Part shown: piece by piece, positions 4,879 to 6,194 of the stretch
Position numbering within the stretch: position 1 is the stretch's first letter
How the letters are laid out: every line of letters begins with the position of its first letter
Assembly: GCA_964583985.1 (NCBI GenBank)
Contig: CAZOYD010000037.1
Coordinates: 1-35,212 of the forward strand
Length of the DNA stretch: 35,212 nt
From: an uncultured archaeon
GTDB lineage: Archaea; Asgardarchaeota; Lokiarchaeia; Sigyniarchaeales; SOKP01
Reading direction: 5' to 3'
Notes under the pieces: generated by a model
The model's input: the letters and a program-made list of their open reading frames with translations, nothing else
Databases searched by the model: none
What the model was told of the DNA's origin: nothing
Translations under genes and position numbers: made by a program

Positions 4879-5010
4879 TACTCAAATCGAAAAACCCAGT
4901 TGGGAATATTTATATTTTTTTCAATAATCCCCTTATTATTAAAAACAATTTAACATCAAAAGTGATTATATATTTCATTTGAAGAAATTAGCAAAAAACT
5001 TGCTCAATTG

Positions 5011-6194
5011 ATGAAAGATACCGAAGAAATTGAGCTTAGAGATGTCGATTTATTTGCAGATTACCTTGAGTTTCAAATGTTACCCCAGATGGTAGTTTCT
5101 GCTGCTCAAGCTACGTTACCCGGCATCGGAAAGGCTGAATGGAAAGACGTGAAGTTTAAACTTGACTTGAATTATCCCGGTAAAATTGAAACCATTGAAT
5201 TTGTTCGCTCTAAAGGTAAGAAGGTTACGATTGGTGGTGAAGTGGTGCCTCCTTTTTATAACTTCCTCGGACTTGATAAACGCAACCCCAATCCTCCACT
5301 GGTTACGTATGATGTGTTCGATATGGGTTCTAAAATGATGCTTCCAAAACCCATTAAGCAAGAGTATGGAGAAGTATTACAACATCCTGCTGAATGGGCT
5401 AAATTCGCAGTTGATAAATTCGGTGCTCAATGCATTACATTCCACTCTCTTGAAATTGATCCTGCCATGGGTGATGCACCAATAAGTCAATCCGTGAAAT
5501 ACTTAGAAGATATTTTGCAAGCAGTTGATGTACCCGTCATCATTGGATGTTCGGGTAATAAAAAGAAAGATATTGAATTATTCGAAGCCACAGCTCCGAT
5601 AACAGAAAGCGAAGTATTGATGCTATCTGCCGCAGACAAAGCCACATGGGAGGAAGTAATCCCCTTAGCAGTTAAATATGACCATAATTGCTTGTTATGG
5701 ACGAGTTTAGACCTCAACAATCAAATTAAAATGAATAAAGACGCTTTAGAGCTTGGACTCCCCCGTAATCGGATCGTAATGGATCCTACCTGCGCAACAG
5801 CATAATTTAAAAATCTTAAATTGCTGCGATTTTAGGCTACGGGATGGAGTACAGTTTTAGCATCTACCAAAGAATGCGAGTCGCGGGTCTTTTGGGTGAA
5901 GAAGATTTAGCGTACCCAATTAGTGGTGGAACTACTAACGCATGGGGCGCTCGTGAAGCGTGGATGAGCGAAAAACAAGTTCCTGAATGGGGTTTACGAC
6001 AGTATAGAGGACCTATTTGGGAAATCATAAATGCTCTTTCATTAAGCTTGGTTGGTTTAGATTTAGCCATGATGTTCCATCCCGTTTCAGCTAGCTATGT
6101 CAAGGAGATTACGGGACAATTCTTTGCCGAAATACCTAAAGTAATGGACAACTTGGGTTATTACGACTGGGTTTCCGCTCGTATAAAGAAATAA
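5011..6194 (+). CDS. cdhD: Acetyl-CoA decarbonylase/synthase complex delta subunit (corrinoid Fe-S protein small subunit); two exons 5011-5798 and 5831-6194
   Basis: ORFs 5008-5805 and 5844-6194 are the N- and C-parts of CdhD (VTIGGE, PAEWAK, IVMDPT / LGYGMEYS, NAWGAREAW, MMFHP). Joining 5798 to 5831 gives DPTCATLGYG in one open frame of about 383 aa. Confidence 0.9.
5799..5830 (+). other. Putative 32-nt bulge-helix-bulge (BHB) intron in cdhD mRNA
   Basis: Central helix CGCA (5793-5796)/TGCG (5825-5828), 3-nt bulges ACA (5797-5799) and ATT (5829-5831), intron hairpin GCA..ATTTAA/TTAAAT-TGC; contains the in-frame TAA. Confidence 0.85.

What the first reader, a model, noticed from the sequence alone, without database searches (positions are those of the whole stretch)
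5785..5846. Candidate tRNA-type (bulge-helix-bulge) intron inside the protein-coding gene cdhD of an Asgard archaeon
Seen in sequence: cdhD is broken into two frames by a 32-nt insert carrying a TAA. The junction folds as a canonical BHB, with 4-bp helix CGCA (5793-5796)/UGCG (5825-5828) and 3-nt bulges ACA (5797-5799) and AUU (5829-5831) on opposite strands. It also has an intron hairpin (GCA/UGC plus AUUUAA/UUAAAU, loop AAAUC) and a weaker exon-exon stem (G.U, CCU/AGG, AUCC/GGAU). Established: archaeal splicing endonuclease EndA cuts after the second nucleotide of each bulge and RtcB ligates. Applying that rule removes exactly 5799-5830 and gives GCA AC|T TTA GGC TAC = A-T-L-G-Y, restoring both the frame and the gap-free CdhD motif DPTxxxLGYGxEY. 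Structure and homology therefore predict the same excision independently. The archaeal mRNA intron I know well is cbf5 of Crenarchaeota; I know of none in a Wood-Ljungdahl gene or in Lokiarchaeia. Inference: splicing-dependent expression of a core carbon-metabolism subunit, reminiscent of non-spliceosomal HAC1/XBP1 splicing. Other apparently frameshifted Asgard genes may hide such introns.
Basis: partly seen in the sequence, partly recalled or inferred. Interest (0 to 1): 0.95.

Follow-up and report, generated by a model that had tools for sequence, protein, structure and literature searches.

The report
tRNA-type mini-intron splits Asgard cdhD
The only gene for the delta subunit of acetyl-CoA synthase in this Loki-type Asgard archaeon is interrupted by a 32-base insert shaped like an archaeal tRNA intron; the mRNA almost certainly has to be cut and rejoined by the tRNA-splicing enzymes, which the papers I could search show for only one archaeal protein gene (cbf5).

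Summary
Window 5799-5830 is a 32-nt insert in the genome's only cdhD. About 65 related Promethearchaeota genomes lack the insert at exactly this point. Six other genomes and eight metagenome contigs carry a 32- or 36-nt insert at the same point. In all of them the central helix CGCA/UGCG, both bulges and the flanking helices are kept, and four base pairs show compensatory double changes. Both exons are under strong purifying selection (dN/dS about 0.05-0.06) between two carrier genomes. The genome encodes a two-subunit splicing endonuclease (EndA) and the ligase RtcB. It also carries same-shaped 30-31-nt inserts in single-copy core genes (RNA polymerase Rpo1N, NadE, LeuRS). cdhD of other species has such introns at two further sites. 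Carriers are scattered on the gene tree and share alleles within about 50 nt of the intron, which suggests lateral spread by recombination; support for that is moderate. No RNA data exist, so splicing itself is inferred. No paper I could search reports such introns in Asgard protein genes; cbf5 of Crenarchaeota is the precedent. This scan has already found the same phenomenon in at least ten other Asgard genomes and in other genes of this genome.

The parts
5011..5798 (+). cdhD exon 1. The start is probably ATG 5011 (relatives begin MKDTEEIEL); TTG 5008 is the first possible start. The exon ends after AC of the Thr codon.
   Evidence: Pfam CdhD positions 7-180; TIGR00381 positions 59-278.
5799..5830 (+). 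32-nt BHB mini-intron (phase 2). It shifts the frame and carries an in-frame TAA at 5803-5805.
   Evidence: no insert at this point in about 65 relatives; an exact 32-nt gap in the same-genus relatives aligned directly. A 32- or 36-nt insert is present at this point in 6 other genomes and 8 metagenome contigs.
5831..6194 (+). cdhD exon 2 (T of the Thr codon, then L-G-Y-G-M-E-Y... to stop 6192-6194).
   Evidence: Pfam positions 181-227, TIGR00381 positions 280-388. dN/dS 0.061 against the carrier L044.
5793..5796 (+). Central helix H, 5' strand (CGCA, exon 1). It pairs with 5825-5828.
   Evidence: Invariant in all 15 carrier sequences. TGC GCA is used by 7/7 carrier genomes but only 5/71 non-carriers.
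5825..5828 (+). Central helix H, 3' strand (UGCG, the 3' end of the intron).
5797..5799 (+). 5' bulge ACA; predicted cut AC|A.
   Evidence: Conserved in all carriers.
5829..5831 (+). 3' bulge AUU; predicted cut AU|U.
   Evidence: The first A is conserved; the other two positions vary (AUA, AAA, AGA) in other carriers.
5800..5824 (+). Intron hairpin h': 3 bp, a 2-nt bulge, 6 bp, then the pentaloop AAAUC (5811-5815).
   Evidence: 100% paired in 11 distinct sequences, with 4 pairs showing changes on both sides.
5789..5792 (+). Exon-exon helix h, 5' strand (CCUG). It pairs with UAGG 5833-5836.
   Evidence: 100% paired, with two one-sided (wobble) changes.
5833..5836 (+). Exon-exon helix h, 3' strand (UAGG).

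Best explanation
Window 5799-5830 is a bulge-helix-bulge (tRNA-type) intron in the pre-mRNA of the genome's only cdhD. The transcript folds so that the last four exon-1 bases before the 5' bulge (CGCA) pair with the intron's 3' end (UGCG). This presents two 3-nt bulges on opposite strands, flanked by an intron hairpin and a short exon-exon helix. The heteromeric splicing endonuclease EndA cuts after the second base of each bulge, and RtcB joins the exons and probably circularises the 32-mer. That restores ...DPTCAT|LGYGMEY... and a 384-aa CdhD. Unspliced mRNA would stop at the TAA six bases into the intron. Shown here: the insert, its geometry, its exact absence from relatives, structural covariation, purifying selection on both exons, and the presence of the enzymes. 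Inferred: cleavage and ligation themselves. A further, less certain inference is that the intron spreads between lineages by homologous recombination that carries about 50 nt of flanking exon on each side.
For: (1) Geometry and frame. (2) Not an artefact: the insert is present in 7 species-level genomes from different studies and in 8 metagenome contigs. About 65 relatives have an uninterrupted gene with no insert at exactly this point. (3) Structure is conserved while sequence changes. Across 11 distinct sequences helices h, H and h' are 100% paired, and 4 pairs change on both sides (A-U/U-A, C-G/U-A, A-U/G-C, U-A/C-G). No shuffle out of 500 reaches the observed values, and slid controls pair only 30-43%. 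(4) Exon synonymous sites that form H and h are fixed in carriers and free in non-carriers: TGCGCA 7/7 against 5/71, and all three exon features jointly in 0/71. (5) The gene is functional. dN/dS between carriers G000 and L044 is 0.053 (exon 1) and 0.061 (exon 2) at dS about 0.55. The four codons L-G-Y-G between the splice site and the first ATG change only synonymously in carriers. (6) It is the sole cdhD. Pieces match TIGR00381 at 59-278 and 280-388; the intact orthologue scores 349 bits against a cut-off of 253. The other strong PF03599 hit (C102) is CdhE, and a third, weaker hit on C23 (61 bits, model positions 268-385) was not examined. (7) Machinery: two EndA paralogues of 205-207 aa with 28% identity, one lacking the aligned Tyr/His, plus one RtcB. 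Asgard EndA is described as (alpha-beta)2 with the broad-specificity L1 loop (PMC5829648). (8) The same architecture interrupts single-copy core genes in this genome. The halves join without a gap in Rpo1N (PF04997 2-73|74-272) and NadE (PF02540 3-143|144-242), and almost without one in LeuRS (PF00133 1-134|145-225). The Rpo1N insert is exactly absent from 7 relatives. The strict motif occurs 11 times in the true geometry against 2 in mirror-image decoys, and 7 against 0 with the stricter hairpin threshold. (9) Chance: 0 of 200,000 shuffles.
Against: There is no RNA evidence of any kind: no spliced read, no circular intron, no junction peptide. A metagenome scan for the spliced junction found nothing. 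The 3' side of the motif is relaxed, with a G.U pair and a 4-nt bulge or an extra bulged U. A non-BHB fold is 0.2 kcal/mol more stable. At loose thresholds my genome-wide motif counts equal the decoy counts, because operon junctions dominate, so the motif alone is not diagnostic. For the lateral-spread part: intronless sister pairs also diverge more near the site (10-14% against 3-5%), the AU test groups were chosen after seeing the data, and selection for BHB-competent exons could explain the positions nearest the junction.
Confidence: 0.88

Rival explanations
1. A split gene. The insert is an intergenic hairpin, and CdhD is made as two polypeptides (265 aa, ending at TAA 5803, and 116 aa, starting at ATG 5844) that assemble after translation.
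For: An ATG lies four codons after the junction. Both halves are under purifying selection, which this model also predicts.
Against: The L-G-Y-G codons upstream of that ATG change only synonymously in carriers. The insert boundaries match relatives to the base and coincide with the BHB cut sites. The H helix and exon codon choice are constrained. The same inserts sit inside GHFGH|IEL of Rpo1N and inside NadE, where two-piece proteins are implausible. No promoter-like or terminator-like site was found at the junction (bacterial consensus only).
Confidence: 0.05
2. A recent pseudogene. A small hairpin element inserted into and inactivated cdhD.
For: The unspliced frame stops after 265 codons. 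cdhD here lies outside a cdh operon.
Against: dN/dS is 0.05-0.06 in both exons over dS of about 0.55 since G000 and L044 split, with the insert present in both. The insert persists in at least 7 species with compensatory changes. It is the only cdhD, and cdhE is present. There is no other copy of the insert in the genome.
Confidence: 0.03
3. Translational recoding. Ribosomes bypass the 32 nt (as in T4 gene 60) or shift frame.
For: A stop follows the take-off region and a hairpin follows that, as in gene 60 (from my own knowledge of that system).
Against: There are no matched take-off and landing codons: ACA or GCA before the insert, AUU/UUA after it. The 36-nt variants keep the frame and so would need no shift, yet keep the same BHB. 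Conservation of the exon-intron H helix and of bulge size has no role in bypassing. Many unrelated genes share the geometry.
Confidence: 0.02
4. An assembly or sequencing artefact.
For: Contigs of two relatives (G023, G019) end exactly at this site.
Against: The same insert appears in independent assemblies from different studies and in 8 metagenome contigs, with evolutionary variation.
Confidence: 0.005

Closest known systems
BHB intron in cbf5 (aCBF5 pseudouridine synthase) pre-mRNA of Desulfurococcales and Sulfolobales (Watanabe 2002; Yoshinari 2006; Yokobori 2009, PMC2738675)
   Same: A short protein-free intron inside a coding sequence, with a BHB motif at the exon-intron boundaries. The host has a heteromeric EndA. 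The intron is gained and lost among related species.
   Different: A different gene (cdhD), a different phylum (Promethearchaeota/Asgard), and no sequence relation. Here one gene carries introns at three sites across species (two species carry two). The same genome has further mini-introns in Rpo1N, NadE, LeuRS and other genes. cbf5 splicing was shown experimentally; here it is inferred.
Archaeal tRNA and rRNA BHB introns cut by EndA and joined by RtcB
   Same: The same predicted substrate geometry: a 4-bp helix between two 3-nt bulges, cut after bulge base 2, with half the motif built from exon. Asgard tRNA genes are known to be intron-rich (PMC11291895; preprint 10.64898/2026.10.13.758758). 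Here 12 of the 21 tRNAs that aragorn detected have introns.
   Different: The host RNA is an mRNA. The exon half of the motif must therefore be encoded in codons, which is visible as fixed synonymous choices. No tRNA body is available to help recognition.
HAC1/XBP1 unconventional mRNA splicing
   Same: Non-spliceosomal, protein-catalysed removal of a small intron from an mRNA at stem-loop-defined sites, followed by tRNA-ligase-type joining (from my own knowledge).
   Different: Ire1, not the tRNA endonuclease, makes the cuts there, and the event is stress-regulated. Nothing here indicates regulation.
Homing group I introns and inteins
   Same: A patchy distribution at highly conserved sites of conserved genes, and signs of co-converted flanking exon.
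   Different: There is no ribozyme (no Rfam match), no endonuclease ORF (32 nt) and no protein-level splicing. Any spread would depend on ordinary recombination.

Membership tests
Archaeal BHB (tRNA-type) intron, substrate of EndA/RtcB | [quoted passage not shown] | tested here: met
   CGCA/UGCG with bulges ACA and AUU. Kept in all 15 carrier sequences.
Archaeal BHB (tRNA-type) intron, substrate of EndA/RtcB | Flanking helices h (exon-exon) and h' (intron) | tested here: met
   h' has 3+6 bp and h has 4 bp; both are 100% paired across 11 distinct sequences. h begins with a G.U pair and leaves a 4-nt bulge or an extra bulged U, so the 3' side is slightly relaxed.
Archaeal BHB (tRNA-type) intron, substrate of EndA/RtcB | Cutting after the second bulge base restores a functional product | tested here: met
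   The excision joins Pfam positions 180|181 and TIGR00381 positions 278|280, and equals the intronless orthologues.
Archaeal BHB (tRNA-type) intron, substrate of EndA/RtcB | The host encodes the splicing endonuclease and the RtcB ligase | tested here: met
   two EndA paralogues (alpha-like and beta-like) and one RtcB.
Archaeal BHB (tRNA-type) intron, substrate of EndA/RtcB | Cleavage and ligation occur in RNA (spliced mRNA, circular intron) | not testable with these tools
   No transcriptome is available. A scan for the spliced junction in metagenome contigs gave 0 hits, which is uninformative.
cbf5 pre-mRNA intron lineage | Located in cbf5 and homologous to the crenarchaeal intron | tested here: not met
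   The host gene is cdhD. It is the same kind of element, not the same lineage.
Group I / group II self-splicing intron | A ribozyme core | tested here: not met
   The insert is only 32 nt. There is no Rfam match at E<=1 in 5500-6100.
MITE or IS insertion | Multiple copies in the genome | tested here: not met
   No other copy in the 3.8-Mb genome.
Programmed translational bypass (T4 gene 60 type) | Matched take-off and landing codons around the gap | tested here: not met
   the codons flanking the gap do not match. The 36-nt variants preserve the frame yet keep the BHB.

The most novel reading that the evidence does not exclude
Loki-type Asgard archaea host a population of stereotyped 30-36-nt BHB mini-introns. 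The typical layout is 1 nt, a stem of about 9 bp, a 5-nt loop, the return strand of the stem, a 4-nt H strand and 2 nt, with both bulges usually starting with A. These introns colonise the most conserved motifs of many protein-coding genes: RNA polymerase A', LeuRS, NadE, probably DnaG, and cdhD at three sites. They are gained and lost on the time scale of species, and they move between lineages as DNA by homologous recombination that co-converts about 50 nt of flanking exon. mRNA splicing by the tRNA machinery would then be a routine and essential step of gene expression in the closest prokaryotic relatives of eukaryotes.
Probability: 0.55. Interest if true: 0.92.

Novelty: new member of a known kind. 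Interest (0 to 1): 0.85.

Why it matters
In the papers I could search, protein-free BHB splicing inside an archaeal coding sequence is documented only for cbf5 in Crenarchaeota. Here a central Wood-Ljungdahl gene depends on it. So, in the same genome, do RNA polymerase, a tRNA synthetase and NAD synthetase. The organism belongs to the archaeal group closest to eukaryotes. Four consequences follow. (1) Automatic annotation of Asgard genomes miscalls such genes as frameshifted, split or pseudogenes, which distorts metabolic reconstructions such as 'cdhD missing or truncated'. (2) It gives a concrete, testable system for asking how introns enter and persist in protein genes without a spliceosome. 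(3) The presence/absence differences, the multiple sites per gene and the shared flanking alleles bear on an open question: how BHB introns arrive at new sites. (4) The exon half of the motif constrains synonymous codons, an unusual RNA-level constraint on coding sequence.

Tried and rejected
(1) Structure-first genome scans. With loose criteria (H at least 3 of 4 pairs, any hairpin, intron length 20-110 nt, ORF fusion, coding flanks), the true geometry and a mirror-image decoy gave equal counts: 21,270 vs 21,527, and later 181,443 vs 181,456. Chance motifs at operon junctions dominate. Enrichment appears only with a strict H helix, A-initial bulges and length 28-37 nt (11 vs 2; 7 vs 0). I therefore make no claim about the total number of introns in the genome.

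(2) Paralogue-collinearity search for split genes. It recovered only one mini-intron (C2:124178-124207) and did not recover cdhD. Most of its hits were in-frame TGA codons, which are selenocysteine sites, not introns.

(3) Pfam on the exon halves was inconclusive for the dnaG candidate (42-aa first exon, no hit) and for the AIR-synthase-like gene on C123.

(4) A metagenome scan for the spliced junction found 0 hits. This is uninformative.

(5) Whole-stretch folding energy is not unusual (z -0.35), so thermodynamic stability does not argue for the structure.

(6) The co-conversion tract. My first reading was a tract of 115-150 nt. I reduced it to about +-50 nt after control pairs of intronless sisters also showed raised divergence from +50 to +100. 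'All carriers form one clade' in the patch is neither supported nor clearly rejected (p-AU 0.053).

(7) A search for other copies of the intron in the genome found only AT-rich chance matches.

(8) Rivals considered and rejected: intein, group I/II intron, MITE, translational bypass (see the membership table).

Full report
WHAT IS THERE. The plus strand of window 5008-6194 carries a CdhD-family gene in two frames. The upstream frame, 5008-5805, ends VMDPTCATA*. It matches Pfam PF03599 positions 7-180. The downstream frame, from 5832 (LGYGMEY...), matches positions 181-227, so the two pieces abut without a gap in the model. NCBIfam gives the same picture: TIGR00381 (cdhD equivalog) positions 59-278 and 280-388. 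The uninterrupted orthologue of a relative (L046) scores 348.9 bits against a cut-off of 252.9. The other strong PF03599 hit in the 3.8-Mb genome (contig 102) is the gamma subunit CdhE; a third, weaker hit on C23 (61 bits, model positions 268-385) was not examined. So this is the only identified cdhD. Its neighbours are dapB, lysA, dapF and membrane proteins, not a cdh operon.

H is CGCA 5793-5796 with UGCG 5825-5828. The bulges are ACA 5797-5799 and AUU 5829-5831. The intron hairpin has 3+6 bp with loop AAAUC. The exon-exon helix is CCUG 5789-5792 with UAGG 5833-5836. Cutting after the second base of each bulge removes 5799-5830 (32 nt) and yields ...TGC GCA AC|T TTA GGC..., that is C-A-T-L-G.

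IS IT MORE THAN CHANCE? Overall folding energy is unremarkable. The minimum-energy fold (-15.8 kcal/mol, z -0.35) slips the 5' bulge to form CAGCA/UGCUG. The BHB-constrained fold is only 0.2 kcal/mol worse. The relevant question is whether a BHB falls in the register that homology demands. In 200,000 shuffles of the 32 nt, a 4-bp H helix in a compatible register appeared in 0.9%. H plus three closing pairs appeared in 0.05%. The full motif never appeared.

COMPARATIVE EVIDENCE. Among 40 related genomes, most same-genus genomes have an uninterrupted 398-aa frame. Their DNA lacks exactly 32 nt at this point. A wider fetch of 80 loci, whose record titles name Promethearchaeota/Promethearchaeia MAGs, gave about 65 intronless genes. 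It also gave six more carriers at the same site: one with 32 nt (L044) and five with 36 nt (L067, L068, L075, L088, L089). A pattern scan of metagenome contigs added eight more 36-nt carriers.

Across the 11 distinct sequences, H is invariant and helices h, H and h' are 100% paired. Four pairs change on both sides: A-U/U-A in the outer intron stem, and C-G/U-A, A-U/G-C and U-A/C-G in the inner stem. No shuffle out of 500 reaches the observed covariation, and sliding the partners by 1-3 columns drops pairing to 30-43%.

The exon half of the motif is written in synonymous sites. TGC GCA is used by 7/7 carrier genomes and all 8 metagenome contigs, but by 5/71 non-carriers. The three exon features together occur in 0/71 non-carriers. 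These counts are not phylogenetically independent.

THE GENE IS ALIVE. G000 and L044 both carry the intron and have diverged to dS of about 0.55. Their dN/dS is 0.053 for exon 1 and 0.061 for exon 2. The four codons between the splice site and the first downstream ATG (L-G-Y-G) differ among carriers only synonymously. That argues against independent initiation at ATG 5844. The unspliced frame meets TAA two codons into the intron in every carrier.

MACHINERY. The genome has two EndA paralogues of 205-207 aa. Each has the N- and C-terminal endonuclease domains, and they are 28% identical. One lacks the Tyr and His that align with the other's. This fits the (alpha-beta)2 enzyme with the L1 loop that has been described for Asgard archaea and linked to broad substrate range (PMC5829648). 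One RtcB is present. Aragorn finds only 21 tRNAs in a genome scored 100% complete, and 12 of them have introns. That is in line with reports of heavily interrupted Asgard tRNA genes (PMC11291895; preprint 10.64898/2026.10.13.758758).

NOT AN ISOLATED CASE. First-stage notes on this genome had flagged similar inserts in other genes, so I scanned the genome myself. Loose motif criteria give as many hits in a mirror-image decoy geometry as in the true one, because operon junctions dominate. With a 4-bp H helix, A-initial bulges and length 28-37 nt, there are 11 true-geometry hits against 2 decoys, and 7 against 0 with a stricter hairpin. cdhD is one of the 11. A recurrent layout is 30 nt: 1 nt, a 9-bp stem with a 5-nt loop, 4 nt of H strand and 2 nt.

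Pfam on the flanking frames shows gap-free continuation in three cases:
- RNA polymerase Rpo1N: PF04997 positions 2-73 | 74-272, with a 31-nt insert inside GHFGH|IEL.
- NAD synthase: PF02540 positions 3-143 | 144-242.
- LeuRS, nearly gap-free: PF00133 positions 1-134 | 145-225.
The Rpo1N insert is exactly absent from seven aligned relatives, including the closest one. Genes like these cannot be dispensable, so the organism must remove such inserts.

MORE SITES IN cdhD. Other species carry BHB mini-introns at two further positions in the same gene.
- Site A corresponds to window 5657|5658 (E-V|I-P) and is 30 nt long. In L099 and L105 it reads GAAG or GATG, then [TA|N], a 9-bp stem with a 5-nt loop, CTTT or CATT, then [AA|A].
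- Site B lies 9 nt upstream of our site, after AC of the Thr in DPT. It is 32-33 nt long, with H helix CCCA/UGGG, in L087, L116 and L121.
- L067 and L075 carry both site A and our site. Their site-A insert has no in-frame stop and a degenerate hairpin.

HOW IT GOT AROUND (less certain). On the cdhD tree, carriers of our site are scattered. Outside the junction region, 'carriers form one clade' is rejected (p-AU 5e-38). L068 groups with three intronless sisters at 100% support.

Within about 50 nt on either side of the intron, L068 differs from those sisters at 24-26% of positions, against 2-7% in the bins upstream of the site. At the differing positions it carries the allele of the other carriers in 68-82% of comparisons, against about 35-50% elsewhere. 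These include ten positions at -42 to -24, beyond any BHB helix. L089 and L067 show the same pattern against their sisters. On this 170-nt patch the native clade of L068 is rejected (p-AU 0.014), and carriers cluster more than any of 500 label shuffles.

Four caveats apply. Intronless sister pairs also diverge somewhat more here (10-14%). The groups were chosen after looking at the data. The patch is short. Selection for BHB-competent exons explains the nearest positions. I read this as moderate support for transfer of the intron with short flanking tracts by homologous recombination, and against one ancient gain followed by many clean losses. The intron has no other copy in the genome and no Rfam match.

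COMPARISON WITH WHAT IS KNOWN. In the searchable literature, BHB introns inside archaeal coding sequences are documented only for cbf5 of Crenarchaeota (Watanabe 2002; Yoshinari 2006; Yokobori 2009, PMC2738675). A 2025 paper on archaeal splicing endonucleases still cites only these. Six full-text searches combining Asgard or Lokiarchaeal terms with BHB, intron, protein-coding and splicing endonuclease found only tRNA- and rRNA-related work. The element is therefore a new member of a known kind, in a new gene and a new phylum. At the level of the genome it points to something larger.

This scan's own records show that the same phenomenon has already been found and followed up in at least ten other Asgard genomes (uL11, EF-2 paralogue, MglA-like GTPase and others). 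Those are unchecked AI notes and I did not use them as evidence.

VERDICT. The interpretation as a BHB intron is supported at about 0.88 confidence. The missing piece is RNA or biochemical proof. HAC1-like regulation is unsupported.

Noticed in passing
L099, L105, L067, L075 (corresponds to window 5657|5658; not present in the window): A second BHB mini-intron site in cdhD of other species. It is 30 nt long; in L099 and L105 it has a 4-bp H helix, a 9-bp stem and a 5-nt loop. L067 and L075 carry both this intron and the one at our site.
   Followed up: partly
L067 and L075, site-A insert: In these two loci the 30-nt site-A insert has no in-frame stop and a degenerate hairpin (1-3 contiguous closing pairs). 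It may be read through as a 10-aa insertion (exonisation), or it may be decaying.
   Followed up: no
L087 (Loki_b32), L116, L121 (9 nt upstream of window 5799): A third BHB intron site, after AC of the Thr in DPT: 32-33 nt, H helix CCCA/UGGG, bulges AC|A and AA|A. Its 5' part (..TGTGCATAATT..) resembles the sequence around our site. This could be intron sliding or an independent gain.
   Followed up: partly
G000 C2:24757-24787 (-), C85:7886-7915 (+), C64:4237-4266 (-), C2:124178-124207 (+), C26:12729-12759 (+), C123:4513-4542 (-), C12:36593-36622 (+), C19:45917-45948 (+): Other 30-32-nt canonical BHB inserts in protein genes of the same genome. Rpo1N, NadE and LeuRS were verified by Pfam continuity. 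One unnamed gene (C2:124178) was verified by paralogue collinearity. The dnaG and AIR-synthase-like candidates were inconclusive. The last two in the list were not examined.
   Followed up: partly
mini-intron hairpin loops (window 5811-5815 and the loci above): The 5-nt loops are often A-N-[AT]-T-C (AAATC, ATATC, AATTC, ATTTC, AGTTC). This could reflect a shared constraint or a recognition element.
   Followed up: no
G000 C60:16288-16290, C23:22617-22619, C11:14996-14998, C13:37961-37963; C13:36364-36366, C11:13446-13448, C23:21045-21047: In-frame TGA codons in conserved contexts (DDC[GS]I-TGA-[VI]L.GP and V.[IV][VA]G-TGA-...EC) in multi-copy genes. By motif they look like hdrA-type and mvhD-type genes, and the TGA codons are most likely selenocysteine codons. 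I did not run family searches on them.
   Followed up: partly
L007/L045 (G023) and L010/L064 (G019): Contigs of two related MAGs end within a few bases of the intron site. G019 has a second contig that overlaps the site without an intron. This suggests mixed intron-plus and intron-minus (or patch-variant) populations that break the assembly.
   Followed up: partly
whole genome G000: Aragorn detects only 21 tRNA genes (12 with introns) in a genome scored 100% complete. Many tRNA genes are probably too interrupted to be recognised.
   Followed up: no
L052 and several JBHL* loci: Record titles disagree with where the loci fall on the cdhD tree. One contig with a Promethearchaeota-type cdhD is titled 'Candidatus Nanopelagicaceae bacterium'. 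MAGs titled Hodarchaeota, Hermodarchaeota, Odinarchaeota or Thorarchaeota sit inside the same cdhD clades as Promethearchaeota MAGs. Mislabelling or mis-binning is likely.
   Followed up: no
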